The position numbers and the translations under genes were made by a program. DNA of 64,000 bases from Erysipelotrichaceae bacterium (GTDB taxonomy: Bacteria > Bacillota_I > Bacilli_A > RFN20 > CAG-826), in NCBI GenBank assembly GCA_012518415.1, contig JAAYSH010000035.1, positions 934 through 64,933 on the forward strand, written 5' to 3'. Each line of letters opens with the position of its first letter. Positions within the stretch are counted from its first letter, which is position 1. This document shows, in pieces, positions 1,513-35,001 of the stretch. The notes under the pieces were generated by a model, which had not been told where the DNA came from, made no database searches, and saw nothing but the letters and a program-made list of their open reading frames with translations.

Positions 1513-3021
1513 TTAATTGTCTGTTTCATCTTTTTTATTATCTTCACTTGACTCGTTAGGTTCTTCACGGTGTTCTTCGCCACGAGTAAAGATCGATTCA
1601 AATTGATCGCTAGTAATTTTATTTTCTTCTTCCTCATCTTGGCTTGTAATCGCCCCTGCAAGTTCGGCTTTATCTTCTTCACTTAATGTTGCCGCTGGAC
1701 CACCAAGTAAGCGGTCTTCAAAATTAACCCACTCTTCATCGCTTTCTTCTTCAACGAAAACTTGCTCTTCAATCGGGTTATCTTTTAGTTCACTTTCATA
1801 ATCGGGATAAATTTTTGCAACCTTAAGATGAACTGGTCTTGTTCCAGCAATAAAGTCATGCAATGCACGGTTCTTTTTACCGAAGGTCGCCATTGTAAAT
1901 GAAATGAATGTGAAAATTGGAAGCATTCCGCCCCCGCCGACGAAAAAGATAAAAAATACATCTAACATAAATGTTAAAAGGAAAAAGGCAATGTATCTTG
2001 CAATAATTTGCCACCATTTAGCTTTATATCCGTATGTATTAACAATACCAAGACTTAGGAGCTTTTTACCTAATGTTGCTCCGTGTTTAAATACAAGTGG
2101 GAATAAAAGATAGACGATTAAGGAAGAACCAAATAGTGAGAGTATAATAGCAACTGACCCTTTTTGATTAATTATTTGTGCATCTGCCTGAGCGTTTAAA
2201 TCATTTCTTGCACTCGTATATAAATTTGCAAAAAATTGATCTGCTTCGGCTGATTTCCCTTCTTTAATCGCTACCCCGGGGGGAAGGTGATGTGCTTCAG
2301 GCACGGCAGCATTTACTTGAACTGCCTGTTTTTTCGAGTTAGGCTCAAGAATTCCAGTACTTTCGAAAATTGATGCGTCTAATTTATCAGTTTTTGGTTG
2401 ATCAACACGTAAAATGCGTTCTTTAAACCACGTAACCGGATCATCTCTAAAGTTATGAACAGTAATATATTGGCTATCAATTACATCAAGACCGAGATTA
2501 TTAAGTTGCTCTTCGATCTCAGCGTTTGCTTCTTTTCTAAATGTAATGAGCTGTTCATTAATCTCTTCGCCTTCTTTAAAATATAACTGGCGAATATATT
2601 CATAACTTTCATTTATTCGATCATATTTATATTTCGTATAAAACTCTAATACGGCTGCACTTTGAAGATATTTATCTTTAACAGCTGAAGTATAACCTAC
2701 AACACCTTGTGGTAGTCTTGGACCATATATAAGTGATAATTCAGTTAAATCTTCACCATATTCGCCAACATAAGTAATTGTATAAAGGCGCGAGTTGTGC
2801 CGGTCCATATTTGATGCGCGCTCATGTAAGTCGATTTGACTAGTCGCATTTAAGATTGGTCGAGCGACTCCGTAAAAACCAATAAAAAATAAAACTATCA
2901 TTATAATGAAGTCGATAAGTGCAGCCCCAAATCTTCGACCAGGTTTTGGTAAAGGAGCAAACCTCGCCTCAGTTGGAACTTGTCTTTGTCTAACCGTTGA
3001 ATCCGTCTTTGTTGTTGTCAT
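1513..3021 (-). CDS. RDD-family integral membrane protein paralog, with a ~250-aa extracytoplasmic domain and an acidic C-terminal tail
   Basis: PGRRFGAALIDFIIM (N-terminus), GATLGKKLLSLGIV and KNRALHDFIAGTRPV (C-terminus) are RDD motifs. The tail is acidic (EEESDEE...SSEDNKKDETDN). AAGGAAG RBS upstream. Confidence 0.6.
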   Translation of the reverse strand: MTTTKTDSTVRQRQVPTEARFAPLPKPGRRFGAALIDFIIMIVLFFIGFYGVARPILNATSQIDLHERASNMDRHNSRLYTITYVGEYGEDLTELSLIYGPRLPQGVVGYTSAVKDKYLQSAAVLEFYTKYKYDRINESYEYIRQLYFKEGEEINEQLITFRKEANAEIEEQLNNLGLDVIDSQYITVHNFRDDPVTWFKERILRVDQPKTDKLDASIFESTGILEPNSKKQAVQVNAAVPEAHHLPPGVAIKEGKSAEADQFFANLYTSARNDLNAQADAQIINQKGSVAIILSLFGSSLIVYLLFPLVFKHGATLGKKLLSLGIVNTYGYKAKWWQIIARYIAFFLLTFMLDVFFIFFVGGGGMLPIFTFISFTMATFGKKNRALHDFIAGTRPVHLKVAKIYPDYESELKDNPIEEQVFVEEESDEEWVNFEDRLLGGPAATLSEEDKAELAGAITSQDEEEENKITSDQFESIFTRGEEHREEPNESSEDNKKDETDN

Positions 3022-7109: not shown

Positions 7110-7520
7110 TTATTCAGGTCGTTTTGTACCATAGAGTGAGCGTCCTTGACGACGTTTTTCAATTCCTGCTGTGTCAAGTGTACCTCTAACGACGTGATAA
7201 CGAACCCCTGGTAAGTCTTTAACACGGCCTCCGCGTACTAAGACGGTTGAGTGCTCTTGTAAGTTATGACCTTCACCACCAATATAAGCGTTAACCTCAT
7301 AGTTATTGCTTAAGCGAACCCGGGCATATTTACGTAATGCTGAGTTTGGTTTTTTCGGTGTAAGAGTTCCAACACGAGTACAAACACCACGTTTTTGCGG
7401 CGCGTTTTGGTTTGTTTCTTTTCTTTTAATCGAATTCCAGCGTTTGCCTAAAGCTGGTGATTTTGATTTAGTCACTTGTTTCTTGCGACCTTTACGTACT
7501 AGTTGTTCAATTGTTGGCAT
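7110..7520 (-). CDS. rpsL: 30S ribosomal protein S12
   Basis: [12 protein letters not shown]...[10 protein letters not shown]...[15 protein letters not shown] is a near-canonical S12 sequence. Confidence 0.96.
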
Positions 7521-7686
7521 GGCTTGTCTCCTTTCACATGGTAATTACAGTGTTTTATCTAAGCACACAAGTTCGGGCGTGTCATACCCTCCAAAACAAA
7601 GGAGTGACACTGTCACTAGCTTGTGTGATTTCGCACACGTATGGGATTATAAACTTTATATGTCTGCTTGTCAAGTAAATGCTTGC

Positions 7687-7923
7687 TAACTAGGTAATAA
7701 TGTCACTTTTCAAGGTTAATGCAACGGAATAGTGAAAAAGCTCAAAAATCAAATAAACAGCCAAGGTTAATTACACAACACAGTTAAAAAAGGCTGTTTT
7801 TTGTTTGAAATCGCATTAAAACAACTTTAAAAAGCACAAGAAAATAAACTTGATATCTTTTCAATCAAGGTTATTGAAACGCTCCGTTGCATTAACTTTG
7901 AAAAGTGACGTAACTAGGTAATA
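7687..7923. repeat. ~240-bp element bounded by 27-bp inverted repeats (1 mismatch) and 13-bp direct repeats, with an internal hairpin; lies upstream of rpsL
   Basis: GTCACTTTTCAAGGTTAATGCAACGGA at 7702-7728 is the reverse complement of 7883-7909 with one G/A mismatch. TAACTAGGTAATA occurs directly at 7687-7699 and 7911-7923. An internal AACAGCC...GGCTGTT hairpin followed by a T6 run lies at ~7758-7808. Confidence 0.55.
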
Positions 7924-7943: not shown

Positions 7944-9446
7944 TCAATACGTATTCGCTAAAAACTCAATCGTCATAGCATTTTTCGATTGTTTAATTAT
8001 TTTAAATGTAAACGGAAGTTTAGTATCATCTTTAAAAGTAAAGTTTGGGTAAATTTCACTGCCAAAATGATCGCTGTTTTTAAACAAGGTCGAGTTATTC
8101 GCAAAAGCGCCATCTTGACGGCGACTTCCACCTCTTTCTAACAAGTGATATAAAATTTCATTATCATCATATAATGGTGAGTTGTTATACATGAATGCAT
8201 TTTTTCCTGCGACAAGTGGACGTAAGTTTGCTTTTACGTGCATAACTTTAAGTCCATATTCACTAAACAAGTTTACTTTTTGTGAAGCATTCGCATCATA
8301 GTAATTTAAGTTTGTTGGCGTATAAAACTCAAGAAGCAAATATTCGCTAAATACATCAAAATCATTTTTTAATTGCGGAGTAATTAAAATGAAATCTCCA
8401 CTTGTAACAAATGGACGTAAAGTAATCTTTCCAGGACTAGTTACAATGTATGGTTTACTCCACCCTAAAAGCATCTTTGAAAAGGAACTATGATCGCCGA
8501 GAGAATAATCCATCATGTCCGCGCCTCCAAGTGGGCGGTAAGTGCCTGAGCCAGTATTATAGTAGTCTTCTAACCCAAGTAAATGACCTACTTCATGAAT
8601 TAATGTATGAGCATCGGGCATTTTATTATTTAGTGAATATTCGGGGTATAAAAAATCATAACTTGCCCATGCGTATGTTTTACCAACGGGTGAAGTTAAA
8701 TTAGGTGATTGTTTATCATAAGTTGTATACGCCCAAAATAAGGAATTGCGATTACTTCCTTCGCTTTCACTCGTTTTGCCACTGTTACCAATTGGGTGCG
8801 AATATATGACAAATGCTGCATCAACATAACCGTCTTCGTCTTGATCATACATTTGTTTAAATTCAAGTGGATCAACTGTTTGCTTATACGCTTCAATTGC
8901 TAGTTGCATTACTTTAGAGGAAATGCTTGTTTTTTCACTCTCACGGCAAACACCGCTTGAACAATTATTAATCCGGCTCATTAAGTTTTCGTCCTCAACC
9001 ATATACCAAGGTGCGACTTTACCGCCTAACTTTAATTTGCCGTAGCTTGATTTGTAATAAAAACTTGCGACTGACTCCCATTGGTTCACTTTTGGGTCAC
9101 CAAAAAAAGCATTTTCAATAATTTGATGTGCGTCTTCGCCATTATTATTATCGAGTTCGCTTTTAGGGTAACTTGGGAATTCAACAGGCAAAACGAGGAT
9201 GTTTTGTTTGCCTGATGCATCTAAATACTTTTGTTGCTCTTTTTCATTATTTGCTTTTTCAAATATTGTTTGAAAGTCTTGGACATATTCTTTTGGTTCA
9301 TAAAAATTTGGGCCGCTGAGGCGAGTAGGTTTATTGACATTATCACTAAATGCGTAGGGTTTACTGTCAACACCAAAACAAGCACAGCCACTTAATAAAA
9401 GTAAACTGACTAGAGTAAGGAGTGTTTTCCTTTTTGCTATAGTCAT
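7944..9446 (-). CDS. Lipoprotein, M6 (immune inhibitor A/InhA-like) zinc metallopeptidase family
   Basis: Signal peptide plus lipobox LLLSGC. HEVGHLLGLEDYY matches the M6-type HExxHxxGxxD zinc motif. N-terminal LVLPVEF...ESVASFYYKSSYG block resembles InhA-like proteins. Confidence 0.6.
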   Translation of the reverse strand: MTIAKRKTLLTLVSLLLLSGCACFGVDSKPYAFSDNVNKPTRLSGPNFYEPKEYVQDFQTIFEKANNEKEQQKYLDASGKQNILVLPVEFPSYPKSELDNNNGEDAHQIIENAFFGDPKVNQWESVASFYYKSSYGKLKLGGKVAPWYMVEDENLMSRINNCSSGVCRESEKTSISSKVMQLAIEAYKQTVDPLEFKQMYDQDEDGYVDAAFVIYSHPIGNSGKTSESEGSNRNSLFWAYTTYDKQSPNLTSPVGKTYAWASYDFLYPEYSLNNKMPDAHTLIHEVGHLLGLEDYYNTGSGTYRPLGGADMMDYSLGDHSSFSKMLLGWSKPYIVTSPGKITLRPFVTSGDFILITPQLKNDFDVFSEYLLLEFYTPTNLNYYDANASQKVNLFSEYGLKVMHVKANLRPLVAGKNAFMYNNSPLYDDNEILYHLLERGGSRRQDGAFANNSTLFKNSDHFGSEIYPNFTFKDDTKLPFTFKIIKQSKNAMTIEFLANTY

Positions 9447-9449
9447 AAA

Positions 9450-11141
9450 TTAATAACTCCTAATTTGAATTTTCGCCCCTTCTTCAGTAAGACTACCAAT
9501 TTTTACAGCATACCCAATACTTTCGCCGCTATTAAAGTTAAGTAATTTAAAGGCACTGCCTTCTTTATATAAACTATCGTTCGTTGCGACATATTTATTA
9601 CTTGGATCGCCAAACAGCTGATCAAATAAGGTTGGAGTTCGGTTTGGTTTGCCTTGGTCGGCTTTAACGATTTCGATAAGTGAATAATGCTCATTAACAA
9701 CGGAGCGCGGATTAAACGGATCAATCGTATTAGAATGTGCGACCTCGGTAAAATATGTATGAGGTGTTTGGTTTCTTCCTGCGATTGCCGTTGAAGGGGC
9801 TTCAATTTCATCGACATATTTAGTTTCACGAACATTTAAAGTTCTGACGCCATCATCAAGATAATAGGCGCTTCTAACTAAACGAGCATCAACATGTAAT
9901 AACCTAATACCTGGTTCAGAAAATCCCATTAATACATTGCTAAATGGATTATTTGGGTAAAATGCGTCCATATAATTAAGACCGCCAGGAGTGTAGTATT
10001 CGATCATAATATATTCATCAAATGGAGTATTATTCCAATTATTATTAATTAAAATAACATCGCCGGAACTATGAAATGGTCGAAGCGTAATATCACTATC
10101 ACCAGTTACTACAATTGGGTCAATCCATCCTAAAGCGAATTTAGAAAACGGGTTATGGTCACCAATCGTGCCATCCATCATATCGATATATCCAAGTGGT
10201 GCTTTTTTTCCGCCGTAGTCATAGTAGTCATCTAAACCTAAAATGTGACCAACTTCATGAATATATGTATGCGCATCAATTTCACTATCCCCGTAGCGGT
10301 TGTATAAAAAGTCATGACTTGCCCAAGCATATACTCCAGGAACTGGTTTATTCGTGTCACTAGGATCAATTGCTTCTTTATTTCCGTAATACCAAAATAC
10401 ATATGCCCAAAATACGTTGCTATCTAGCTGGGTTGTGTAATTGCGACCAGTTCTTTCATCATATAGGGTCTTTTCAGAATTTAAAAAGTTTGGAGCACTA
10501 TATACTAAGAAAATCGCATCAATTTCACCATCGTTATCTTGATCATATTCATTTAGTAAAGCTGCATCAAGTTGCTCATATACTTTTTCAAGTGCAAAAT
10601 ATGAGCCATCCATACCAGCATAATTGGGATTATTTTTGTTATTAGCGACATATTCGCTTAAATATGAGGTTGTAACACCTAAATCGACCCAGTTTGTTAC
10701 TTCTCCACTAAAATTAAGGGCACCGTAACTACTTTTATAATAATAAGATGCGACACTTTCAAAAACTGTATCATCACTACTACCAAAAAAGGCTTTTTCG
10801 AGTCGTTGTCTTGTTATTTCACCACCTGCACTATCGAGTTCACTTGCAGGATAATCACTAAATTCAACCGGCACAACAAGGAGTTTTTGCTCTCCTGTAC
10901 TATTAATCGTACTAATACCGTTAAGCTCATTTAAATATTTATATGTCGGGCGCTCTCCACTAGGAATATAGTTCTTATAGCCCTGATTATCTTGTTCATT
11001 AAATTCATCAAATGATATTGGAGCTTCGCTACTACTTGGCTCCTCATTATAGTCAATTATCGGAAAAGGCCATTCACAACTACTTAAAAGTAATGTTGCT
11101 AAGATGCTAAATCCAAATAGCTTTTTGCGTTTCATTCTCAC
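9450..11141 (-). CDS. Lipoprotein, M6 (InhA-like) zinc metallopeptidase paralog
   Basis: Lipobox LLLSSC; HEVGHILGLDDYYDY; LLVVPVEFSDY...ESVASYYYKSSYG. A 3-nt gap separates it from the downstream paralog. GGAGGAGG RBS upstream. Confidence 0.6.
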   Translation of the reverse strand: MRMKRKKLFGFSILATLLLSSCEWPFPIIDYNEEPSSSEAPISFDEFNEQDNQGYKNYIPSGERPTYKYLNELNGISTINSTGEQKLLVVPVEFSDYPASELDSAGGEITRQRLEKAFFGSSDDTVFESVASYYYKSSYGALNFSGEVTNWVDLGVTTSYLSEYVANNKNNPNYAGMDGSYFALEKVYEQLDAALLNEYDQDNDGEIDAIFLVYSAPNFLNSEKTLYDERTGRNYTTQLDSNVFWAYVFWYYGNKEAIDPSDTNKPVPGVYAWASHDFLYNRYGDSEIDAHTYIHEVGHILGLDDYYDYGGKKAPLGYIDMMDGTIGDHNPFSKFALGWIDPIVVTGDSDITLRPFHSSGDVILINNNWNNTPFDEYIMIEYYTPGGLNYMDAFYPNNPFSNVLMGFSEPGIRLLHVDARLVRSAYYLDDGVRTLNVRETKYVDEIEAPSTAIAGRNQTPHTYFTEVAHSNTIDPFNPRSVVNEHYSLIEIVKADQGKPNRTPTLFDQLFGDPSNKYVATNDSLYKEGSAFKLLNFNSGESIGYAVKIGSLTEEGAKIQIRSY

Positions 11142-11205
11142 TACCTCCTCCTTAGTCTATCTTTATAATTATAACTTTATTATTGTAACATGTGGAGTTT
11201 ATGCT

Positions 11206-12597
11206 TTATTCATGAGGAAGAATATCTTCGCCTTTTTGCTTAGGCAGCGGCAAAACAATATTTAAAATGAAACTAGCAACAATAATTATTAAAAAGAAAT
11301 TAATTTTTACACTACCAATCGTTAAGCTTAGTGCGAGTGTATAGCCTAAAAATATTTCCGCTAAGAAAAAGCCACCTAAAATAAAACCGAGTAATAAAAT
11401 AAGTATCACTCCAACACCTGTCCGAAGTTTTCCTTGCTCCTTAACTCCTGCTTTAATTAAATTAAACCCGTTGATAAATAGTCTTGAGGCAAATAAAAAT
11501 AAAAAGGCAAAATAAATCCCTTCAGGAATTGTCTGGAGAATATATTCAAGTGGTAAAGCAAAAACTAAAATAATTATCCCCATTAAAAAGGTAGTATTTA
11601 TAATCTTTTCTTTTTTATTAATATATCTAACTTCTTCACTTATAAGTTCAAAAGGCGGGATCGCAAAGGCTGAATTTGCTAAAGTCAGACCACTATCTAG
11701 TAAAATTTTCGAATCTAAACTAGGTCCTTCCTTTAACTTTTTGCTAACTTCTTCTCCTTCACCCCGGTACATATTTACTGTGTTTGAAAAACTAATAACT
11801 GTAAGTGCAAGCGCAAGTAAAATTAACGACCAATCAAAATCGATATGGTTATAAAATCTAAAATATTCGCCTAAATTACTAAAAACAAAATAATTATAAT
11901 GACCAAACTCTTGAAAACGGGCAAAATATAATGTGCCTTCAAGTGAAGCTTGCGTTGCAAGCATAATTAAGTCATGAATCACATAAATTAAAATGCCCAT
12001 AATAAAAATAAGTGGTAGTTTGTAGCGATTAAAGAAACTATCCTTACTAAGCGAATTAAATAAATAAAACAAAAAGACAAACAAAACTAGATTACTTATA
12101 CCTATATAGTTAATTACCCCGCCTTGATCAAGGGGAACATAAGTAAACTTCACTAAAATTCCGACCATAAATAGTGCCGCAAATACAATTGAAAGCGCAC
12201 CTGCAAAATAAGGCGGAATGAGTTTTTTCTTCATTCTTGGAGTAAAAAGATGGTAAACCATCGCAAATACGAGGTAAACGATTGCGATTATCCAAGAAGC
12301 AATCGCGACCCTACCTCGAGCAATCGCGCTAGCACTTACTCCATCACCTACTTCACTACTACCTAGTGTTAAAATAAAAATCGGTAAAAAAATAAAGTTT
12401 GGGATAAATAAGCCAAGCCGGTCTTTTTTATCAAAAATAATAAATGCGATTGATCCAATTGCCGCAAGTAAAATTCCAATACCTAAATGTGCTTTTGCAG
12501 CCAAAAGTGCCATGATTAATAAAACACTAAAATTAGTTATATTAACGCCGTAGGCACTTTTCTTAGATTTTACTTTTGCAACATCCGTTTTATTCAT
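11206..12597 (-). CDS. Polytopic integral membrane protein (~12 TM), unknown function; first gene of the membrane protein + 2x M6 protease operon
   Basis: 463-aa hydrophobic ORF with no recognised motif. TATAAT lies 6 nt upstream of the ATG and there is no SD sequence, so the transcript may be leaderless. Confidence 0.5.
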   Translation of the reverse strand: MNKTDVAKVKSKKSAYGVNITNFSVLLIMALLAAKAHLGIGILLAAIGSIAFIIFDKKDRLGLFIPNFIFLPIFILTLGSSEVGDGVSASAIARGRVAIASWIIAIVYLVFAMVYHLFTPRMKKKLIPPYFAGALSIVFAALFMVGILVKFTYVPLDQGGVINYIGISNLVLFVFLFYLFNSLSKDSFFNRYKLPLIFIMGILIYVIHDLIMLATQASLEGTLYFARFQEFGHYNYFVFSNLGEYFRFYNHIDFDWSLILLALALTVISFSNTVNMYRGEGEEVSKKLKEGPSLDSKILLDSGLTLANSAFAIPPFELISEEVRYINKKEKIINTTFLMGIIILVFALPLEYILQTIPEGIYFAFLFLFASRLFINGFNLIKAGVKEQGKLRTGVGVILILLLGFILGGFFLAEIFLGYTLALSLTIGSVKINFFLIIIVASFILNIVLPLPKQKGEDILPHE

Positions 12598-12642
12598 AAG
12601 ATAATTATATCTAATTTAACCATCAAAAAGGAAAATACATGA

Positions 12643-12675
12643 CAAAAAAAACAAAAAACTGCGGCATAACCGCAG
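12643..12675 (-). terminator. Rho-independent terminator downstream of rpoC
   Basis: Stem CTGCGG/CCGCAG (12659-12664 / 12670-12675) with a CATAA loop. On the minus-strand RNA it is followed by a U-rich run (A-rich 12643-12658 on the plus strand). Confidence 0.65.
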
Positions 12676-12696
12676 TTTAATGTTTACTTTAGCGAT

Positions 12697-15600
12697 TTAT
12701 TTCTCGTAATCTGATAAGTAAAACTCTTCTACTTCTTCAAGTTCATCTGAGACTTCGAAGTTTGCGAGTGTTTCTTCTTCATCATACAATTCGTTAACGG
12801 TTCGTCCAGCTGGAATAAGTTTTCCAGTAATGACGTTTTCTTTTAAGCCGTGAAGTGTATCTGTTTTTCCTTTAATCGCGGCATCGGTAAGTACTCTTGT
12901 TGTTTCTTGGAACGATGCTGCCGAAAGGAAACTTTCAGATTCAAGCGCAGCTTTAGTAATTCCTAAAATAATTGGACGTGCTACCGCTGGTTTGCCGCCC
13001 TCAAGCAAGTGCTTGTGGTTTTCCTCAGTGAAACGAATTAATGTTACACGTTGTCCTGGGAGTAAACTTGTATCTCCACCATCGATAACGACGACTTTCC
13101 GTAACATTTGTCGGGTAATAACTTCTAAGTGTTTATCAGAAATTTTAACACCTGCTGATGTACGGTAAACTTTTTGAACTTCATTAAGAATATAGTTTTC
13201 AACCGCAGTTACGTCAGAAACTTCTAATAGTTTCTTCGGATTAATTGCACCTTCGGTAATTCTTTGGCCGTTAACAATTTCATCACCTTCTTTGACGCGT
13301 AACTTCGCACCGTAGTTAGTGTGATATTCTTTTTCTTCGACCGTGTCACCTAAGTCATTAGCAATAACAACTTTGGAGCGGTTATTAACAGTTTCAATTG
13401 ATTTAACAACTCCAGCAATTTCTGAAATAAGTGCTTCGCCTTTAGGGTTTCGCGCTTCAAATAATTCTTGGACTCTTGGTAAACCTTGGGTAACGTCTTC
13501 GCCACCAGCGACACCACCAGAGTGGAATGTCCGCATCGTTAACTGCGTTCCTGGCTCACCAATTGATTGCGCCGCCATAACTCCAACCGCATCACCTACT
13601 TCAGCAAGTTGACCAGTTGCTAAGTTAACACCGTAACAGTGCCTACATACACCTTTACGTGTTTCACAGCCAAATAATGAACGAATTTCAACACTCTTAA
13701 CACCTGATTCTTCAACAAGCAGTGCCTCATCTTCAGTAATTAATGTATTAGCTTCAACAAGAATATCACCTGTTTCAGGATGGAGAATATCATGAATTGT
13801 AAAGCGACCTACAAGTCGATCTGATAAGGATACAACTGGGCGATCAGCTTCAATTTTCTTCCGTTCTCTAATTTCTGTAACGACAAAGCCATGATCGCTA
13901 CCGCAATCTTCTTCACGGATAATAACATCTTGGGCAACGTCAACTAGACGTCTTGTTAAATAACCAGAGTCAGCAGTTTTTAAGGCTGTGTCCGCTCCAC
14001 CTTTACGAGAACCGTGCGAGGCGATAAAGAATTCACTAACAGTTAATCCTTCACGGAATGAAGTTTTAATTGGTAACTCAATCGTCTTTCCACTTGGAGA
14101 CGCCATTAGTCCACGCATACCTTCTAATTGTAAGAAGTTACTTTCTTTACCACGCGCACCACTATCGCTCATTAAGAATAATGGGTTTTCTTTATCAGCA
14201 TTGAACTGGGTACGAAGTGCTTCGCGTACTTCATTAGAAATATCTTTCCAGTTATCAATAACTGCATCATAGCGCTCTTCTTCATTAACAAGTCCTTTGT
14301 CAAAAGCATGCTGGATTTGCATTACTTTTTCATCACCCTTCTCAATAATCTCATGCTTGCCTTCGACAATTTTAATGTCCGCAAGTGAGATAGTTAGCCC
14401 TGATTGGGTGGCAAAGGAGAAGCCTTGATCTTTAATCTTATCAAGGACCGCACTTGTTTTTCCTGCACCATATTTTTTAAACAATAAGTCAATTAAGACA
14501 GAAATGTCTTTAACTTTAATTGGTTTGCGTAATTTTTGCTTGGCAACGTATTCACGAATATTTGTTCCGCGCGGGACAAAATACTCGCTTGGAGTTTCTT
14601 CATAATTAAGTGTTTCCCCATTGTATGTATCGTTAATATAGGCGAAATCACTTGGGAAAACTTGATTAAATAATAATTTACCAACACTTGTAATTAAATA
14701 AGAAGCATTCATTTCTGGTGTGAAGCATTTTTTCTTAAGTGCTTTACCAGGAATTGCGACCCGATTATGGAGGTGAACCAAATTAGTTTCATAAGCGATT
14801 CTTACTTCATTAACTGAACGGAACACTTTTCCTTCACTTGCAGCATATAATTCATAGTTAGCTGCTTGTTCGTAGTCGCCTCTTTCTCTTTCTTCTTCGG
14901 CGCGGTCACGGAAATCTTTAACATTCTTTTCCGTTGTCATATAGTAGTTACCAATAACCATATCTTGTGATGGTGTAACAATTGGCTTACCATCTTTTGG
15001 ACCTAAAATATTATTGGAAGCAAGCATTAAAGTAAGTGCTTCTTCTTGCGCGGCTTTACCTAATGGGACGTGAATTGACATCTGGTCACCATCAAAGTCC
15101 GCGTTAAAACCAGTACAAACAAGTGGGTGAAGCCTAATAGCTCTACCACTTACTAAAACTGGTTGGAATGCTTGAATTCCAAGTCGATGAAGTGTTGGGG
15201 CGCGGTTAAGCAAGACAGGATGTTCAGAAATAATATCTTCGATAATATCAAAAACTGCTTCATGGTATTGATCGATCATCTTGTCTGCTGCCCGGTTACC
15301 ATTCGCCTTGCCTTCTTTAATCAAAATGTGGGCAATAAATGGTCTAAATAATTGAATTGCCATAACAACCGGGACACCGCATTGATACATTTTTAATTCT
15401 GGACCAACAGCGATAACTGAACGACCTGAATAGTCAACACGTTTACCAAGTAAGTTTTGACGGAACCGACCTTGTTTACCTTTTAAGTTTGAACTTAATG
15501 ATTTTAAGGCGCGTCCCCCGGTACCTGTTACTGGTCTTGAACGACGACCATTATCAATTAAAGCATCGACTGCTTCTTGGAGCATCCGCTTTTCGTTCAT

Positions 15601-16590
15601 TAAAATAACACTTGGTGCGTTCATTTCAATTAATTTCTTTAACCGGTTATTTCTTGTAATAACCCGGCGGTATAAATCGTTTAAGTCACTTGTAGCGTTT
15701 CTGCCGCCATCAAGTTGAATAATCGGACGTAAATCTGGTGGAATAACTGGAATTACATCCAAGACCATCCACTCAGGTTTATTTTCACTATTTCTAAACG
15801 CTTCGACAACTTCGAGACGTTTAACTTCTTTTTGTCGACGTTGTCCGGTTGATTTAGTTAAAGATTCTCTTAACTTTTCATATTCACCGTCTAAATCGAC
15901 TTCTTTTAATAACCGTTTTACTGCTTCTGCACCTTCACCAAATTCGGCGCCATTGAAGTAAGCGACAAATCTTGAGACAGTGTAAAAGTCAAACGGCCGG
16001 CTAACATCTTGGAGTTTATCAATAATTGATTCACTTTGCGCATATTCATATGTATCAGGTTTAATTAAACCTTCTTCTTGAATTTCGCGGATAACGTTTG
16101 CGAAAATTTCGCGGCCGTTGCGCTCATCAATAAATTGTTTGTATTCTAAAACTTCTGATGTGCCAGGGTTTAAAACGACGTGGGATGAGAAGTATATAAC
16201 TTCTTCTAATAATCGGGCCGACACATCGAGTAATAATCCCATTCTTGAAGGGACGCCTTTTAAATACCAAATGTGTGAGGCAGGTGAGGCGAGTTCGATA
16301 TGACCTAATCTTTCACGACGTGCCTCTTTGGAAATGACTTCAACACCACACTTTTCACAGGTAATATTGCGGTTTCTTGCTCTTTTGTACTTACCACAGT
16401 TACATTCATAATCTTTGGCAGGTCCAAAAATGCGTTCACAAAATAGTCCTTCCATTTCTGGCTTTTGTGAGCGGTAGTTAATCGTTTCTGGCTTTAAAAC
16501 TTCACCGTTTGACCATTCACGAATTTTTTCAGGTGACGCTAAACCTACTTTCATTGACTGAAGTCGATTAACATTAAATGTATTTGACAT
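12697..16590 (-). CDS. rpoC: DNA-directed RNA polymerase subunit beta'
   Basis: 1297 aa with the NADFDGDQM catalytic motif and Zn-binding CNCGKY...CEKCG at the N-terminus. Confidence 0.97.
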
Positions 16591-28490: not shown

Positions 28491-28892
28491 TTATTGCACG
28501 AATTGGACTAAACGCATCGGAGCATTGTCGCCTCGACGGTTAACTAATTTAAGTGAGCGTGTATAGCCACCATTACGGTCAGCATACGCTGGTCCTAAAT
28601 CGTCAAATAAAACTTGAAGCGCAGTTCTTCCATCATCAGCCTTAAAACCTGGACGGACAAACCGTGCTGCTTGTCTCCTTGCGTGTAAGTCGCCACGTTT
28701 GGCAAGTGTAATTAATTTATCGGCAATTGGCACGATTTCACGTGCAACTTTTTCTGTTACTTTAACTTGACCACCAATAATTAATTGACTCACGACGTTG
28801 CGGAGCATATTTTTATTTTTACTCCGGTCAAAACCGGCTTTAAAACGTACGCCACCTTTTCCGCGAACGTTTTTACGTCCTGTTGTTCCCAT
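28491..28892 (-). CDS. rplQ: 50S ribosomal protein L17, with an ~11-aa N-terminal insertion
   Basis: ...LAKRGDLHARRQAARFV...GGYTRSLKL...GDNAPM is the L17 signature; AGAGGT RBS. Confidence 0.93.
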   Translation of the reverse strand: MGTTGRKNVRGKGGVRFKAGFDRSKNKNMLRNVVSQLIIGGQVKVTEKVAREIVPIADKLITLAKRGDLHARRQAARFVRPGFKADDGRTALQVLFDDLGPAYADRNGGYTRSLKLVNRRGDNAPMRLVQFVQ

Positions 28893-28903
28893 ATTTCTTA
28901 CCT

Positions 28904-29890
28904 CTAGCTTTCACGGAACGATAAGCCATATTCTGCTAAAGTATCTTTAACTTCTTTTAATGACTTCTTACCCATGTTCCGAATTTTTGTCATTTCTTCT
29001 TCGGTTTTTTCCGTTAATTCTAGTACCATTTGGAAACCGTAACGTTTTAAACAGTTGTAAGAGCGAACACTTAAGTCAAGCTCTTCAATTGTCATATTAT
29101 CAAATGGTCCTGGTTCTTCACTACCATCGTCTTCTTTAAAGACATTTAGGTTTTGAACGATTGAATCTAATTCAGTAAAGCGTTGGAAATGAGCAACGAG
29201 TATTTGTGCTGCAAGAGCGATTGCTTCTTGCGGAGTGATCGAACCGTTTGTTGTAACTTCAATACTTAATGAATCAAAGCGTGAGTCATGACCAACCCGC
29301 GCGCCATCAACATGATAAGCGACGTTTTTAATTGGTGAATAAAGTGAGTCAGTTGCAATTGATCCAACTGGAAGTGAAGTATTAAGTTGTTTGTTCGCTT
29401 CGCTTGTTTCATATCCACGTGAGTTACGAGCATAAAGAACCATCTTTAAATGTCCACCTTCAGCGATATGAGCGATTTCTAATTCAGGATTAATAACTTT
29501 TACATCACTAGGAATCCGAATATCTGAAGCCCGAACAACAGCTGGACCGACTAAGTCGATTTCTAAGCGTTTTGTTACATCTTCATCATCCTCAATTTTT
29601 AAGACGAGGTCTTTTAAATTTAAAATAATTGTTGTAACGTCTTCGACAACGCCTTCAAGTGCGGAAAACTCATGATCTGCTCCTTCGATTTGAACAGCAA
29701 ATACTGCTGCGCCTGGGAGTGAGTTTAGTAAAACTCTACGTAAGGCGTTACCAATCGTAATTCCAAATCCACCTTCTAAGGGTGAGACATTAAATTTTCC
29801 ATAATTTCTTTTTTCGCTTTTAGCTGCAACTTTAAAATCAATATCTTCAAACGGATTTTCAATATATTTTTCTTGTTTGTTTTTTTCCAT
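28904..29890 (-). CDS. rpoA: DNA-directed RNA polymerase subunit alpha
   Basis: 328 aa; the N-terminal domain and C-terminal LSVRSYNCLKR...I are typical of alpha. Confidence 0.95.
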   Translation of the reverse strand: MEKNKQEKYIENPFEDIDFKVAAKSEKRNYGKFNVSPLEGGFGITIGNALRRVLLNSLPGAAVFAVQIEGADHEFSALEGVVEDVTTIILNLKDLVLKIEDDEDVTKRLEIDLVGPAVVRASDIRIPSDVKVINPELEIAHIAEGGHLKMVLYARNSRGYETSEANKQLNTSLPVGSIATDSLYSPIKNVAYHVDGARVGHDSRFDSLSIEVTTNGSITPQEAIALAAQILVAHFQRFTELDSIVQNLNVFKEDDGSEEPGPFDNMTIEELDLSVRSYNCLKRYGFQMVLELTEKTEEEMTKIRNMGKKSLKEVKDTLAEYGLSFRES

Positions 29891-29914
29891 TATTCATTTC
29901 CTCCTTTAATCCTC

Positions 29915-30313
29915 TTAACCACGTGGCCGTTTTGGTGGTCGGCAGCCGTTATGAGGAATTGGTGTTGTGTCCGTAATGGTTTGGATGTTTAAACCCGCGG
30001 CATGAAGTGCCCTAATTGCGGATTCTCTTCCTGGTCCTGGACCTTTGACGTTAACATCAATTTCAGTTAAACCTTGTTCAACTGCGATTTTGCCTGCTGC
30101 TTCACCTGCTTGTTGGGCGGCCCAAGGAGTCGACTTTTTCGATCCTTTAAAACCGAGCGCACCTGCGCTTGAACTAGCAATTGCATTACCGGCTTCGTCG
30201 GTAATTGTTACAATCGTGTTATTAAAGGTGGAATGGATGTGCGCAACACCTTTAGTATACGAGCGTCTAATTCTTTTTCTACGTCCAGCTTGACGTCTTC
30301 TTTGTTTTGACAT
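29915..30313 (-). CDS. rpsK: 30S ribosomal protein S11
   Basis: 132 aa; [18 protein letters not shown] matches S11. Confidence 0.95.
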
Positions 30314-30331
30314 AATCCATTATCCCCTTTC

Positions 30332-30709
30332 TTAACCTTTAGATCCAGCTTTCTTATTAGCGATAGTTCGTTTTGGACCTTTTCTTGTCCGTGCGTTCGT
30401 TTTTGTTGATTGTCCGCGTACTGGAAGTCCGCGTCGGTGACGAATACCGCGGTAGCAACCAATTTCTTGGAGCCGCTTAATATCCATCGCGACTTCACGA
30501 CGTAAGTCACCTTCAACTTTCATATTGTTAATTTCTGAACGAATCGCTGTTAATTGATCATCGCTTAAATCTTTAACCCGAATATCGTGGTTAATATTTA
30601 ATTTGTCTAATAATTTTTCTGCTTTTGATTTGCCAATCCCATAAATATAAGTAAGTGAAATTACTACTCTTTTATCGTTGGGAATATCAACACCTGCAAT
30701 ACGTGCCAT
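30332..30709 (-). CDS. rpsM: 30S ribosomal protein S13
   Basis: [26 protein letters not shown] matches S13. Confidence 0.95.
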
Positions 30710-30726
30710 AATTTTTTCCTCCTAAA

Positions 30727-30840
30727 TTAACCTTGTCTTTGCTTATGCTTAGGATTTTCGCAAATAACCATAACGCGGCCTTTGCGTTTAATTACCTTAC
30801 ATTTGTCGCAAATTGGTTTGACTGAGGCTCTAACTTTCAT
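30727..30840 (-). CDS. rpmJ: 50S ribosomal protein L36 (not in the ORF track, 37 aa)
   Basis: Hand translation gives [37 protein letters not shown], a textbook L36, lying between infA and rpsM. Confidence 0.9.
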
Positions 30841-30867
30841 AGTATTTTTCCTCCAATTTGTTCGACT

Positions 30868-31086
30868 TTATTTATGTCGATAAGTTATTCTGCACCGTGT
30901 TAAATCATAAGGTGAAATTTCAACCGTAACTCGGTCCCCAGGTAAAATCCGAATATTGTGCTTTTTAATTTTACCAGAGACGGTCGCTAGAATTTCCATG
31001 CCGTTTTCAAGTCTTACCATAAATGTAACATTTGGTAGTGCCTCAATCACGACTGCAGGAAACTTCATTACATCTGCTCTTGCCAT
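30868..31086 (-). CDS. infA: Translation initiation factor IF-1
   Basis: 72 aa; [17 protein letters not shown]...[13 protein letters not shown]. Its start overlaps the map stop by 19 nt. Confidence 0.93.
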
Positions 31087-31856
31087 TTTTTCAACTCCTT
31101 TTCGTCTAATACAGTCAATACTTCAAAGCCATCTTCTGTAATAACAATCGTGTTTTCATAATGCGCAGATAATTTCCCATCTAGGGTTTTCACCGTCCAT
31201 TCGTCATCAAGTACATATGTCGCTCGTGAACCTAGAGTTACCATTGGTTCAATCGCAAGAGTCATACCTACTCGTAGACGCGGACCACTGCCTTCATACC
31301 CATAATTTGGTACGAATGGGTCTTCATGGAGTTTGACTCCGACTCCATGACCAGCATACTCCCTTGGTACTCCGTAGCCTTTTGGCTCTAAGTAACTTTG
31401 AATTGCGTGTGAGATATCACCTACATATCCGCCTGGTTTTGCGTAATTAATTACTGCATTCCAGAAACTTGCTTCCGTTGCTTCAATTAAAGCTTCGGCT
31501 TCAGGTGAGATTTCACCAACTGGGAATGTGCGTGCGGCATCCGCGATATAACCATCCTTTGTTGCACCGACATCAAGTGAAATGACATCACCTTCTTTTA
31601 AAATAATATCTTTACTTGGAATTCCGTGAATCAAGGTGTCATTAACGGATATACATATGTTGCCAGGGAAACCACCATATCCTAAGAATGTCGGTGTTGC
31701 CCCTTCACTGCGAATGATCTTGCCTGCAAGTTGGTCAAGTTCCCAAGTGGAAACGCCCGGCTTGCATTTAGGACCTAATTGTTCAAATACCGTAGCAACG
31801 ATACGTCCCGCTTCTTTCATAAGTTTTACTTCGCGAGGTGATTTCGTAATAATCAT
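31068..31856 (-). CDS. map: Methionine aminopeptidase type I
   Basis: 262 aa with the pita-bread fold metal ligands (D...D...H...E...E). Confidence 0.93.
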
Positions 31857-32509
31857 TCATTCACCTCATCGAGTAATGCGATAATTTCGCTAAACAATTG
31901 GTCGATACTTAGAAGTCCATTAACATTAATTAATAAGCCGGTGTCTTCATAATAATCTTCCAATGGAGCACTATCTTTGGTATAAACTGCTAGTCGCGTT
32001 TTAAATGCTTCTGCAGTGTCGTCTAATCTTTGAATTAATTCACCGTCGCATATATCACACACACCTGCAACTCGTGGTTTTAGTGTCTCAATATGGTATG
32101 GTGCGCCGCAGTTGCTACACACGCGTCTGCCAGAAATACGGGTGACTAACTCATCGGTACTTGCAGCAATATTTATAACTGCTGCTATTGGTTTATTAAG
32201 TTCATCTCCGATTTCTTGAAGTGCTTTTGCTTGCGGCAGTGTCCGCGGGAAGCCATCGAGTAAATAGCCATTACTCGTATCGGCTTCACTAAGTCTTTCT
32301 TTAACTAAGCCAATCGTAACATCATCAGGAACTAAATTTCCATCATTAATATATCGAGCGGCAATTTGACCTAGCGGCGTTTTATTACTTATAGCTTCAC
32401 GGAAAATATTTCCGGTTGAAATATGTGGTATTCCGTAATGCTTAGCAATTTTTTGAGCTTGGGTACCTTTACCAGCACCCGGCGGCCCAAGAAGTACGAG
32501 GTTTAACAT
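31853..32509 (-). CDS. adk: Adenylate kinase
   Basis: GPPGAGKGTQA P-loop and a Zn-binding lid (CSNCG...CDIC). Confidence 0.95.
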   Translation of the reverse strand: MLNLVLLGPPGAGKGTQAQKIAKHYGIPHISTGNIFREAISNKTPLGQIAARYINDGNLVPDDVTIGLVKERLSEADTSNGYLLDGFPRTLPQAKALQEIGDELNKPIAAVINIAASTDELVTRISGRRVCSNCGAPYHIETLKPRVAGVCDICDGELIQRLDDTAEAFKTRLAVYTKDSAPLEDYYEDTGLLINVNGLLSIDQLFSEIIALLDEVNE

Positions 32510-33867: not shown

Positions 33868-33868
33868 T

Positions 33869-34315
33869 TTAAATAGCCTCGACTTGTCCGCCTGCTTTTA
33901 CAATGGCAGCTTCTGCACTTGCAGAAAACTTGTTTGCCTTGACGGTTAATTTTTTCGTAATTTTTCCACCACCTAAGACTTTGATTCCGCCGTTTTCGAT
34001 TTGCTTGACAATACCGGCTTCAATTAACTCTTTTGGTGTAACAATCGCTCCGTCTTCAAAGCGATCCAAATCACTTAAATTAACGACTGTATATCTAATG
34101 CCGCCCCGGTTGTTGAAACCGCGTTTTGGAATACGGCGATATAAAGGTGTTTGTCCACCTTCGAAACCAGGTGCTTTTCTTGACGCACGGCCTCTTGAAC
34201 GTTGACCTTTGTGGCCAGTACCGGTGTTTTTACCCCATCCTGATCCTTCACCACGGCCAACCCTTTTTCTTTTACCGCGCGATCCGTCTGTATATTGAAG
34301 TTCATGTAATTTCAT
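33869..34315 (-). CDS. rplO: 50S ribosomal protein L15
   Basis: 148 aa with a Gly/Arg-rich N-terminus (GRGEGSGWGKNTGTGHKGQ). Confidence 0.93.
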   Translation of the reverse strand: MKLHELQYTDGSRGKRKRVGRGEGSGWGKNTGTGHKGQRSRGRASRKAPGFEGGQTPLYRRIPKRGFNNRGGIRYTVVNLSDLDRFEDGAIVTPKELIEAGIVKQIENGGIKVLGGGKITKKLTVKANKFSASAEAAIVKAGGQVEAI

Positions 34316-34347
34316 AATAATTTCCTCCTTGCAACTTGAGTTAAGGA

Positions 34348-34986: not shown

Positions 34987-35001
34987 TCGTGCATCCTCCT
35001 T

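What the first reader, a model, noticed from the sequence alone, without database searches (positions are those of the whole stretch)
7944..12597. Three-gene accessory module inserted at the conserved rpoC-rpsL junction: polytopic membrane protein plus two tandem M6/InhA-like zinc-metalloprotease lipoproteins
The rest of the minus strand follows Bacillus gene order exactly (…rplL-ybxB-rpoB-rpoC | rpsL-rpsG-fusA-tuf). Precisely at the junction sits an operon of a 463-aa ~12-TM protein with no recognisable motif, followed by two paralogous lipoproteins. The lipoproteins have LLLSGC and LLLSSC lipoboxes and carry the M6-type HEVGH[LI]LGL[ED]DYY zinc motif (HExxHxxGxxD) plus the InhA-like N-terminal VEF…ESVAS[FY]YYKSSYG block. 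The operon has its own candidate leaderless promoter (12598-12640) and sits between the rpoC terminator and the str promoter. A surface-exposed InhA-like protease pair coupled to a dedicated membrane protein, inside the most conserved block of the chromosome, is not a described arrangement and could be a host-factor or peptide-degrading or processing system.
Basis: partly seen in the sequence, partly recalled or inferred. Interest (0 to 1): 0.6.

Follow-up and report, generated by a model that had tools for sequence, protein, structure and literature searches.

The report
Permease plus surface proteases after rpoC
Between the RNA-polymerase and ribosomal-protein genes of an uncultured small-genome Bacilli bacterium sits a three-gene unit, conserved across its whole clade, that encodes a degenerate uracil-permease-type membrane protein and two lipid-anchored zinc proteases that most likely digest external protein for food; it is an old lineage trait rather than a recent insertion, and only moderately unusual.

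Summary
The three minus-strand genes are real: a membrane protein (11206-12597), M6 lipoprotein pA (9450-11135; the start is better placed at the ATG at 11135) and M6 lipoprotein pB (7944-9446).

**Proteases.** Both pass Pfam PF05547 and carry HExxHxxGxxD and a lipobox. A confident pB model matches only B. anthracis InhA2.

**Membrane protein.** It is not motif-less. It is a strongly diverged NCS2/UraA-type permease that has lost the uracil-binding Glu/His residues, while orthologues remain under purifying selection.

**Not a recent insertion.** In 43 of the 79 retrieved GTDB species loci, one to three M6 genes lie next to rpoC and/or rpsL, between the two wherever both ends are on the contig. 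The permease gene follows rpoC in a subclade. Every placeable close relative of the permease sits in that position.

**Regulatory signals.** The rpoC terminator, the SD-less start with TATAAT 6 nt upstream (seen in eight related loci) and the perfect rpsL promoter are all confirmed.

**Likely function.** Paralogous M6 pairs elsewhere lie directly behind oppABCDF operons. This points to surface proteolysis feeding peptide uptake. Whether the permease works with the proteases is unresolved.

**Verdict.** A new variant of known kinds, of moderate interest.

The parts
12656..12678 (-). Intrinsic terminator after rpoC (stop codon at 12697)
   Evidence: 10-bp stem with 5 GC pairs, followed by TTTGTTTTTT. 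An equivalent hairpin plus T run follows rpoC in L001, L003, L005, L007, L008, L009, L011, L013 and L056.
12598..12609 (-). -10 hexamer TATAAT (12609-12604) plus a 6-nt spacer to the ATG of the permease gene: a candidate leaderless start
   Evidence: Sequence read. There is no SD, while 45 of 56 window genes have one. The same layout (a TAxxxT hexamer 6-9 nt before the ATG, no SD) is seen in L001, L003, L005, L007, L008, L009, L011 and L056. No -35 element at a proper spacing was found. No transcript data are available.
11206..12597 (-). 463-aa polytopic membrane protein: a diverged NCS2/UraA-fold permease without the canonical uracil-binding residues
   Evidence: No Pfam hit on its own. A profile built only from syntenic orthologues hits UraA at E 1.4e-18, and 6 of 10 orthologues hit PF00860. 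The best Foldseek hits of the AF2 model are UraA, with TM-score 0.51-0.60. UraA E241 and H245 are replaced by N and M. Orthologue dN/dS is 0.08.
11168..11196 (-). Promoter-like site (TCCACA-17-TATAAT) in the 70-nt spacer between the permease gene and pA
   Evidence: Consensus scan, 10 of 12 matches. TATAAT-like boxes also occur in the same spacer in L001, L007 and L056. Function is not shown.
9450..11135 (-). pA: 561-aa M6-type zinc-metalloprotease lipoprotein, orthologue group p2
   Evidence: PF05547 36.6 bits (cut-off 22) and TIGR03296 88.4 bits (cut-off 110.8). Lipobox LLLSSC at 11076-11087, HEVGHILGLDD at 10227-10259, DMMD at 10173-10184. Best matches are L003_p2 (41%) and L005_p2. The ATG at 11135 lies 8 nt from AGGAGG.
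7944..9446 (-). pB: 500-aa M6-type zinc-metalloprotease lipoprotein, orthologue group p3, the copy most constantly kept next to rpsL
   Evidence: PF05547 38.4 bits and TIGR03296 85.6 bits. Lipobox LLLSGC at 9384-9395, HEVGHLLGLED at 8565-8597, DMMD at 8508-8519. AF2 pLDDT 86.8, and the top Foldseek hit is InhA2 (4yu6) at E 4.5e-11. It starts 3 nt after the pA stop.
7687..7923 (.). Long hairpin element between pB and the rpsL promoter: 34-nt inverted-repeat arms (7695-7728 and 7883-7916) flanked by a 13-nt direct repeat, with an inner hairpin plus T run that may terminate the operon
   Evidence: RNA fold -69.4 kcal/mol, z = -5.8. It is absent from the equivalent spacer of L001, L003, L005, L007 and L009. 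It is a single copy in the window.
7646..7674 (-). Promoter of the rpsL-rpsG-fusA-tuf operon: TTGACA-17-TATAAT, 12 of 12 matches
   Evidence: It marks the downstream boundary of the module.

Best explanation
**What it is.** The locus is a clade-wide, vertically inherited gene unit of uncultured small-genome Bacilli. NCBI labels these genomes Erysipelotrichaceae, Bacilli or Mollicutes MAGs. The unit sits between rpoC and rpsL.

**Transcription (inferred from sequence).** It has its own SD-less, probably leaderless, promoter after the rpoC terminator. No terminator separates the three genes. A second promoter may lie ahead of the protease pair.

**The proteases.** pA and pB are exported, lipid-anchored on the outer face of the cell membrane through their lipobox cysteine, and act as zinc endopeptidases of the M6 (thuringilysin/InhA) type. 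Their most likely job is to cut extracellular proteins into oligopeptides that the cell imports. These are amino-acid-scavenging organisms with small genomes.

**The first gene.** It encodes a 7+7-fold permease that descends from a uracil/xanthine-type NCS2 transporter. It has lost the nucleobase-binding residues, so it probably carries a different small solute. Its link to the proteases is genomic, through shared position and probably a shared transcript. A physical link is not shown.

**Shown:** gene structure, family membership, conserved synteny, purifying selection.

**Inferred:** leaderless transcription, lipidation, proteolytic activity, the nutritional role, and any substrate of the permease.
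For: **Family assignment of the proteases**
- PF05547 scores above its gathering cut-off for both proteins.
- The family profile matches InhA in the PDB at E 1.9e-10.
- The pB model (pLDDT 86.8) matches InhA2 at E 4.5e-11, and the next hit is 8 orders of magnitude weaker.
- H, E, H, D, the lipobox Cys and a D-x-M-D turn are invariant in 35 homologues.
- All 92 full-length junction copies keep HExxH.

**Synteny**
- rpoC-permease-M6-M6(-M6)-rpsL is seen in L001-L006.
- In 43 of the 79 retrieved GTDB species loci, M6 genes are adjacent to rpoC and/or rpsL.
- There are three orthologue groups.

**Selection.** For L005 against L008, dN/dS is 0.08 for the permease, 0.053 for p1, 0.073 for p3 and 0.023 for rpoC.

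**The permease**
- UraA is matched at E 1.4e-18 using a profile built only from syntenic sequences.
- 6 of 10 orthologues hit PF00860 on their own.
- UraA is the best structural match.
- The E241/H245/E290 motifs decay stepwise across the family.
- All placeable hits from the 1.84-billion-protein search lie between rpoC and an M6 gene.

**Nutritional role.** In L047 and L073, M6 paralogue pairs lie directly downstream of, and co-oriented with, a full oppABCDF operon. In L025 and L035 the genes checked just upstream are the opp permease and ATPase genes. The published description of RF39/RFN20-type gut lineages reports small genomes lacking several amino-acid pathways (PMC7301438).

**Habitat.** Homologues come from digesters, lakes, soil, rumen and guts. 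This fits a general physiological role better than a host-specific one.
Against: - No expression or activity data exist. All of these organisms are uncultured.
- The opp linkage concerns paralogues, not the junction copies. It comes from four species, at least three of which are closely related, so it may represent only one or two independent events.
- TIGR03296 scores (85-88 bits) fall below NCBIfam's cut-off of 110.8.
- The family lacks the InhA propeptide and C-terminal domain architecture, so the properties of InhA cannot simply be transferred.
- The permease model has low confidence (pLDDT 59.6).
- I did not show that the window's organism lacks amino-acid biosynthesis, or that it belongs to RF39 or RFN20.
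- Other unrelated genes (CorC/CNNM, BspA-LRR, HlyIII, ABC, GGDEF-EAL) also accumulate at this junction in some lineages. Adjacency here is therefore weak evidence of a shared function.
Confidence: 0.55

Rival explanations
1. **Coupled digest-and-import or docking unit.** The NCS2-derived membrane protein has been recruited as the dedicated partner of the M6 lipoproteins. Either it imports their products, or it holds and regulates them at the membrane. The three genes would then form one functional machine.
For: - Every placeable member of this permease subfamily lies immediately upstream of M6 genes.
- In L009 and L011 the permease stop overlaps the M6 start (ATGA, TAATG), and in L013 the gap is 3 nt.
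- The nucleobase-binding residues are lost, yet dN/dS is 0.08.
- M6 paralogues also sit in operons with another importer, Opp.
Against: - Many lineages keep the junction M6 genes with no permease (L015, L016, L018, L030, L041, L050 and others).
- In L091 a terminator and a promoter separate the two.
- Promoter-like boxes lie between them in the window, L001, L007 and L056.
- No NCS2-fold protein is known to carry peptides (own knowledge).
- No co-folding test could be run.
Confidence: 0.2
2. **Defensive or offensive 'immune inhibitor' role.** As InhA does in Bacillus, the surface proteases would destroy antimicrobial peptides, immunoglobulins or competitors' proteins rather than feed the cell.
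For: - The closest solved relative is InhA2.
- Many homologues come from gut and rumen MAGs.
- Paralogue expansion and fast divergence (30-45% identity between paralogues) fit proteins facing changing targets.
Against: - Homologues are just as common in anaerobic digesters, lake water and soil MAGs.
- dN/dS is low (0.05-0.07), which does not look like an arms race.
- There is an operon link to opp.
- Sequence similarity to InhA is limited to the catalytic domain.
Confidence: 0.13
3. **Envelope housekeeping.** The M6 lipoproteins would process or shed the cell's own surface and secreted proteins. Their position next to core expression genes would reflect an essential maintenance role.
For: - At least one copy (usually p3) is retained almost universally at a core-genome position across the clade.
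- Purifying selection is strong.
Against: - Copy number varies from 1 to 3.
- One lineage uses a plain signal peptide without the Cys.
- Further paralogues are attached to opp operons.
- No known M6 enzyme has such a role (own knowledge).
Confidence: 0.09
4. **Recently acquired accessory island** inserted at the rpoC-rpsL junction.
For: - GC is slightly lower than the window average (34.7% against 37.8%).
- The permease gene has only 9 detectable relatives among 1.84 billion representatives.
- A MITE-like inverted repeat lies at the downstream border.
Against: - The same genes in the same order are found in dozens of species whose RpoC is 61-83% identical.
- Orthologue groups are conserved.
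- There are no integrase or transposase genes.
- The inverted-repeat element is species-specific and lies outside the genes.
Confidence: 0.03

Closest known systems
Immune inhibitor A (InhA, InhA2) of Bacillus thuringiensis and B. anthracis; MEROPS M6 'thuringilysin'; PDB 4YU5 and 4YU6
   Same: It shares the catalytic-domain fold and the zinc motif HExxHxxGxxD, with Asp as the third ligand. PMC12237041 states that thuringilysins and snapalysins are the metzincins that use Asp. The conserved N-terminal strand block (LV.PVEF.DY ... FYxxxSYG) aligns with InhA residues 65-352.
   Different: InhA is a secreted zymogen of about 750-800 aa with a propeptide and extra C-terminal domains. pA and pB are 500-561-aa lipoproteins with a short linker and a single beta-rich C-terminal domain. 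Identity in the structural alignment is about 12-13%. TIGR03296 scores fall below the cut-off. The genomic context, next to rpoC and rpsL or behind opp, is different.
UraA / PyrP uracil permease (NCS2 family, Pfam PF00860; PDB 3QE7, 5XLS, 8OMZ)
   Same: It is the best sequence-profile match (E 1.4e-18) and the best structural match. The length (about 460 aa) and hydropathy pattern are comparable. The TM3 Phe motif and the TM12 'IP' motif are retained.
   Different: The window protein has no PF00860 hit on its own. UraA Glu241 and His245 are replaced by Asn and Met, and the TM10 GEN motif is not recognisable. The gene sits after rpoC with a leaderless start, not in a pyrimidine operon. For comparison, the ordinary uracil permease P0153 lies next to a pseudouridine synthase gene.
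Cell-envelope proteinase plus Opp proteolytic systems of auxotrophic Firmicutes, for example Lactococcus PrtP with Opp (own knowledge)
   Same: The logic is the same: a surface-anchored endopeptidase produces oligopeptides that a transporter takes up. The M6 paralogues lying behind oppABCDF suggest this logic applies here.
   Different: PrtP is a subtilisin-like serine protease anchored to the cell wall. Here the enzymes are M6 zinc lipoproteins. The junction copies sit next to an NCS2-type permease, not next to Opp.
Snapalysin (M7) and igalysin (M64; Thomasclavelia ramosa IgA protease)
   Same: These are metzincins with an Asp third zinc ligand. Weak hits to the motif region were found (and rank 8).
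   Different: Only the zinc-motif segment matches (E about 0.04 or worse). M64 has an extra residue before the Gly (HExxHxxxGxxD), which pA and pB lack.

Membership tests
Peptidase M6 (thuringilysin / InhA; Pfam PF05547) | Match to the Pfam catalytic-domain model above its gathering score | tested here: met
   pB scores 38.4 bits and pA 36.6 bits against a cut-off of 22.
Peptidase M6 (thuringilysin / InhA; Pfam PF05547) | Match to the NCBIfam TIGR03296 M6 domain model above its curated cut-off | tested here: not met
   85.6 and 88.4 bits against a cut-off of 110.8, although E is 5e-24 and 7e-25 over nearly the whole model. This makes it a distant subfamily.
Peptidase M6 (thuringilysin / InhA; Pfam PF05547) | Zinc motif HExxHxxGxxD with Asp as the third ligand | tested here: met
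   HEVGHILGLDD in pA and HEVGHLLGLED in pB. H, E, H and D are invariant in 35 homologues. 85 of 92 junction copies have the exact motif and all 92 keep HExxH.
Peptidase M6 (thuringilysin / InhA; Pfam PF05547) | Met-turn beneath the zinc site, the metzincin hallmark | tested here: inconclusive
   A D-M-M-D segment lies 16 residues after the motif; its D, second M and last D are invariant and the first M nearly so. I could not inspect the coordinates of the model.
Peptidase M6 (thuringilysin / InhA; Pfam PF05547) | Catalytic-domain fold like that of solved InhA | tested here: met
   Foldseek places 4yu6 and 4yu5 at E 4.5e-11 to 4e-9 with TMq 0.55-0.57, and the next hit is at E 5e-3. The model has pLDDT 86.8 and pTM 0.89.
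Peptidase M6 (thuringilysin / InhA; Pfam PF05547) | InhA-type architecture: a secreted zymogen of about 750-800 aa with a propeptide and additional C-terminal domains | tested here: not met
   pA and pB are 500-561-aa lipoproteins. The sequence match covers only InhA residues 65-352, and TM-score normalised to InhA is 0.39-0.42.
Peptidase M6 (thuringilysin / InhA; Pfam PF05547) | Zinc-dependent endopeptidase activity | not testable with these tools
   This needs purified protein.
Bacterial lipoproteins (Lgt/LspA substrates) | Signal peptide ending in a lipobox L-[ASTVI]-[GAS]-C | tested here: met
   MKRKKLFGFSILATLLLSS|C and MTIAKRKTLLTLVSLLLLSG|C. The Cys is invariant in 35 homologues. One lineage instead has a plain signal peptide.
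Bacterial lipoproteins (Lgt/LspA substrates) | lgt and lspA present in the genome; lipid modification demonstrated | not tested
   Only 64 kb of the genome was available.
NCS2 nucleobase:cation symporters (Pfam PF00860; UraA) | Match of the protein itself to PF00860 | tested here: not met
   The window protein has no Pfam family at E <= 1.
NCS2 nucleobase:cation symporters (Pfam PF00860; UraA) | Homology to NCS2 at profile level | tested here: met
   A profile of 10 syntenic orthologues, with no ordinary uracil permease included, hits UraA at E 1.4e-18 and UapA at 1e-6. 6 of the 10 hit PF00860 singly, the best at 4.7e-29.
NCS2 nucleobase:cation symporters (Pfam PF00860; UraA) | 14-helix 7+7 inverted-repeat fold | tested here: inconclusive
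   The AF2 model has only pLDDT 59.6 and pTM 0.64. Its best Foldseek hits are UraA (E 4e-4, TM-score 0.51-0.60), followed by other 7+7 carriers (SLC26, SLC4, SLC23).
NCS2 nucleobase:cation symporters (Pfam PF00860; UraA) | Substrate and proton-coupling residues (UraA Glu241, His245, Glu290) | tested here: not met
   The window has Asn and Met at the Glu241 and His245 positions, and no alignable GEN motif. Relatives show stepwise loss: P0150 is nearly intact, L009/L011/L013 keep S-E-H, and L001/L056 keep only the Glu.
Leaderless genes | A -10 hexamer 5-9 nt upstream of the start codon and no Shine-Dalgarno | tested here: met
   TATAAT lies 6 nt before the ATG with no SD. The same layout occurs in eight related loci. 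The less-diverged permease genes in L090 and L091 have an SD.
Leaderless genes | Transcription start mapped at the start codon | not testable with these tools
   This needs 5' end mapping.

The most novel reading that the evidence does not exclude
A transporter of the NCS2 fold has lost its nucleobase site, has stayed under purifying selection, and has become the leaderless first gene of an operon with lipid-anchored M6 proteases. In some lineages it is translationally coupled to them. On this reading it would be a new kind of partner for surface proteases, either importing their products or docking them at the membrane. The whole digest-and-import unit would be wired between the RNA-polymerase and ribosomal-protein operons so that nutrient scavenging scales with growth.
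Probability: 0.15. Interest if true: 0.6.

Novelty: new variant of a known kind. Interest (0 to 1): 0.33.

Why it matters
- **For annotation.** The result turns a 'hypothetical protein' into a recognisable, if degenerate, NCS2 permease. It also defines a short lipoprotein subfamily of M6 peptidases with three orthologue groups.
- **For understanding the lineage.** The rpoC-rpsL junction carries a lineage-specific, constantly retained surface-protease locus. This makes it a usable synteny marker for a large uncultured group of small-genome Bacilli found in guts, rumen, digesters and lakes.
- **For their physiology.** If the nutritional reading holds, these proteases, together with Opp, are a main route of nitrogen acquisition for organisms nobody has yet cultured. 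That could guide medium design, for example supplying protein or peptides as the nitrogen source.
- **For transporter evolution.** The stepwise decay of a transporter's binding site under continued purifying selection is a tidy natural series for studying change of function in the 7+7 fold.

Tried and rejected
1. **Word-indexed homologue search with the membrane protein.** It found only the protein itself. The exhaustive phmmer search was needed.
2. **First structure job.** It was rerun with a shallow 8-sequence alignment, which gave a low-confidence model.
3. **Profile A1 against the PDB.** The strong UraA hit was set aside because A1 contained near-canonical uracil permeases. The test was repeated with syntenic sequences only.
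4. **Within-species dN/dS (window against L086 and L087).** There were too few substitutions (3-5 of each kind), and one comparison was spoiled by an indel. It was replaced by the L005/L008 pair.
5. **Foldseek against afdb50,** to look for cultured relatives. The library was unavailable.
6. **Literature searches** for M6 lipoproteins in Mollicutes or Erysipelotrichaceae. Nothing relevant was found.
7. **Rfam at gathering threshold over the window.** No family matched, so no known leader or riboswitch explains the spacers.
8. **Exact search for the inverted-repeat arm in metagenome contigs.** There were 0 hits, so the MITE idea remains untested.
9. **Recent-insertion reading.** Considered and rejected on the synteny evidence.
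10. **Exact taxonomic placement (RFN20, RF39 or Erysipelotrichales).** This could not be settled. I could establish only that L059 and L077 belong to the 'uncultured Mollicutes' human-gut set of PMC7301438.

Full report
**1. What is in the sequence**

The interval 7944-12597 holds three co-oriented minus-strand ORFs. They lie between rpoC (12697-16590) and rpsL (7110-7520).

- *Upstream border.* A 10-bp GC-rich hairpin with a T run follows the rpoC stop (12678-12656).
- *First gene start.* 47 nt further on, TATAAT (12609-12604) lies 6 nt before the ATG at 12597. There is no Shine-Dalgarno, whereas 45 of 56 genes in the window have a clear one.
- *Middle gene start.* This gene is better started at the ATG at 11135 than at the GTG at 11141. 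AGGAGG lies 8 nt upstream of that ATG. The same-species contig L087 carries a 561-aa call. The GTG-started sequence is not in the protein collection, while the other two proteins are.
- *pA to pB spacing.* pB starts 3 nt after the pA stop.
- *Downstream border.* Downstream of pB lie a species-specific long hairpin (z = -5.8) and a perfect TTGACA-17-TATAAT promoter for rpsL.
- *Source organism.* The window matches a digester MAG that NCBI labels 'Erysipelotrichaceae bacterium' (NLI94518.1, NLI94516.1).

**2. The two lipoproteins**

- Both pass Pfam PF05547 (38.4 and 36.6 bits, cut-off 22).
- Both match nearly the full TIGR03296 M6 domain at E about 1e-24, but below NCBIfam's cut-off.
- A 20-sequence family profile finds InhA in the PDB at E 1.9e-10.
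- A confident AlphaFold model of pB (pLDDT 86.8, pTM 0.89) matches B. anthracis InhA2 at E 4.5e-11. Nothing else scores better than 5e-3.
- The motif is HExxHxxGxxD, the Asp-ligand metzincin variant typical of thuringilysins and snapalysins (PMC12237041).
- The motif residues, most of a downstream D-M-M-D segment and the lipobox Cys are invariant in 35 homologues.
- These are therefore M6-type enzymes, but a distinct short lipoprotein subfamily. They are 500-561 aa against about 750-800 aa for InhA, and only the catalytic domain aligns.

**3. The membrane protein**

- On its own it has no Pfam hit. It has only 9 relatives among 1.84 billion representatives.
- A profile made exclusively from syntenic orthologues hits E. 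coli UraA at E 1.4e-18.
- 6 of 10 orthologues hit PF00860 individually.
- The model is low-confidence, but its best structural matches are UraA, followed by other 7+7 carriers.
- Aligning the family to UraA shows a graded loss of the uracil-binding residues:
  - P0150 is nearly canonical.
  - L009, L011 and L013 keep S-E-H.
  - L001 and L056 keep only the Glu.
  - The window protein has Asn and Met at these positions.
- The gene is not decaying. Between L005 and L008 its dN/dS is 0.08, similar to the proteases (0.05-0.07).

**4. Comparative genomics**

- Contigs carrying the best protease homologues show rpoB-rpoC-permease-M6-M6(-M6)-rpsL-rpsG-fusA-tuf-RDD-RDD.
- A scan of one genome per GTDB species returned more than 567 relatives. 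Among the best 79 loci, 43 have M6 genes directly adjacent to rpoC and/or rpsL.
- Copy number is 1 to 3. Reciprocal BLAST defines three orthologue groups. The window has p2 (pA) and p3 (pB), and p3, the copy next to rpsL, is the most constant.
- The permease is present in only a subset of lineages. However, every member of its subfamily that I could place lies between rpoC and an M6 gene. The weakest hit, an ordinary uracil permease, lies next to a pseudouridine synthase gene instead.
- The module is therefore ancestral to a large uncultured Bacilli clade and is not a recent insertion.
- In some lineages other genes have also accumulated at this junction: CorC/CNNM, BspA-type LRR, HlyIII, an ABC importer and GGDEF-EAL.

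**5. Transcription signals across lineages**

- The layout 'terminator, then a -10 box 6-9 nt before the ATG, with no SD' recurs upstream of the permease gene in L001, L003, L005, L007, L008, L009, L011 and L056. These proteins are only 20-33% identical to the window's.
- The less-diverged permease genes in L090 and L091 have an SD.
- The permease-to-M6 spacer varies widely:
  - a 4-nt or 1-nt overlap in L009 and L011;
  - promoter-like boxes in the window, L001, L007 and L056;
  - a terminator plus a promoter in L091.
- Co-transcription in the window is plausible because no terminator was found. It is probably supplemented by an internal promoter (11196-11168).

**6. Function**

- The immediate neighbours of 31 non-junction M6 loci were scanned against Pfam. 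The commonest families were Opp-type ABC ATPases.
- L047 and L073 carry a complete oppA-B-C-D-F operon, then a small unknown ORF, then two M6 genes, all co-oriented and tightly spaced. In L025 and L035 the neighbours that were checked are the opp permease and ATPase genes just upstream of the M6 pair.
- This points to extracellular proteolysis feeding oligopeptide uptake. Three further observations fit:
  - the surface anchoring;
  - the intact catalytic motif in every copy;
  - the wide range of habitats (digesters, lakes, soil, rumen, guts).
- RF39/RFN20-type gut lineages are reported to have small genomes lacking several amino-acid pathways (PMC7301438). I did not prove that the window belongs to either lineage.
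- The opp evidence concerns paralogues from a few related species, so it is suggestive only.
- The role of the permease is open. A changed substrate is the simplest reading. A dedicated partnership with the proteases is the more novel one, and the evidence does not exclude it.

**7. Verdict**

The M6 lipoproteins, the separate promoter and the borders hold. The reading of an inserted accessory module, and of a motif-less and dedicated membrane protein, does not.
- Both components belong to known families, and annotation pipelines already call the homologues 'M6 family metalloprotease-like'.
- What seems undescribed, within the limits of my literature searches:
  - the clade-wide placement between rpoC and rpsL;
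  - the short lipoprotein architecture with three orthologue groups;
  - the degenerating, leaderless NCS2 gene.
- Interest is moderate to low (0.33). Novelty is rated as a new variant of a known kind.

Noticed in passing
window 7687-7923: A species-specific element of about 230 bp lies between pB and the rpsL promoter. It has 34-nt inverted-repeat arms (88% complementary, 154 nt apart) flanked by a 13-nt direct repeat, TAACTAGGTAATA. The RNA fold is -69.4 kcal/mol (z = -5.8). It is absent from the equivalent spacer in five related loci and occurs once in the window. The arm has no exact match in the JGI metagenome contigs. It could be a MITE-like insertion or a terminator/insulator.
   Followed up: partly
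window 28491-43499, compared with 3171-24102: The S10/spc/alpha ribosomal-protein block lies upstream of nusG-rplKAJL-rpoBC rather than downstream of tuf as in Bacillus. tuf is instead followed by two RDD-family membrane protein genes (1513-3021 and 568-1506). The same pair, followed by an ABC importer, is conserved after tuf in L001, L003 and L005.
   Followed up: partly
L025, L035, L047, L073 (for example L073:880-13230): Non-junction M6 paralogue pairs lie at the 3' end of oligopeptide transporter operons whose OppC and OppD are unusually long, as in Mollicutes. The full order oppA-B-C-D-F, then an unknown 248-267-aa ORF, then the M6 genes was confirmed in L047 and L073.
   Followed up: partly
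L062:5707-12053, L037:11577-17181, L045:11502-13652, L026:5301-6617: In some lineages the rpoC-rpsL junction has also collected unrelated genes: two CNNM/CorC transporters, a BspA-type LRR protein, a haemolysin-III homologue, an ABC importer, a GGDEF-EAL protein and an AAA/DUF4143 ATPase. The junction seems to be a permissive site in this clade.
   Followed up: partly
L043, L050, L060, L067, L079, L082 (junction M6 genes): One lineage has a single p1-like M6 gene between rpoC and rpsL. Its signal peptide lacks the lipobox cysteine, so the enzyme would be secreted rather than lipid-anchored.
   Followed up: no
L007:8207-9996, L008:8220-9839, L036:9995-11507: In three MAGs an M6 gene at the junction is split into two ORFs. 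This is either a frameshift pseudogene or an assembly error.
   Followed up: no
window 58490-59893 (-) and 56190-57080 (+): Two further genes have no Shine-Dalgarno and have a TATAAT- or TAAAAT-like box 6-10 nt before the start. Leaderless starts may be a recurrent feature of this genome.
   Followed up: no
window 1-64000: No Rfam family reaches its gathering score and no tRNA is found, even though the window holds most of the ribosomal-protein operons. The usual r-protein leader families (for example L10, L20 and S15) are therefore not detectable here. The 105-nt rpsL leader contains a small hairpin at 7617-7603.
   Followed up: no
L005 vs L008, permease gene: The permease gene has a higher synonymous divergence (dS 0.87) than the neighbouring rpoC (0.36), p1 (0.33) and p3 (0.52) genes in the same genome pair. 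I have no explanation. Weaker codon-usage constraint or local recombination are possibilities.
   Followed up: no
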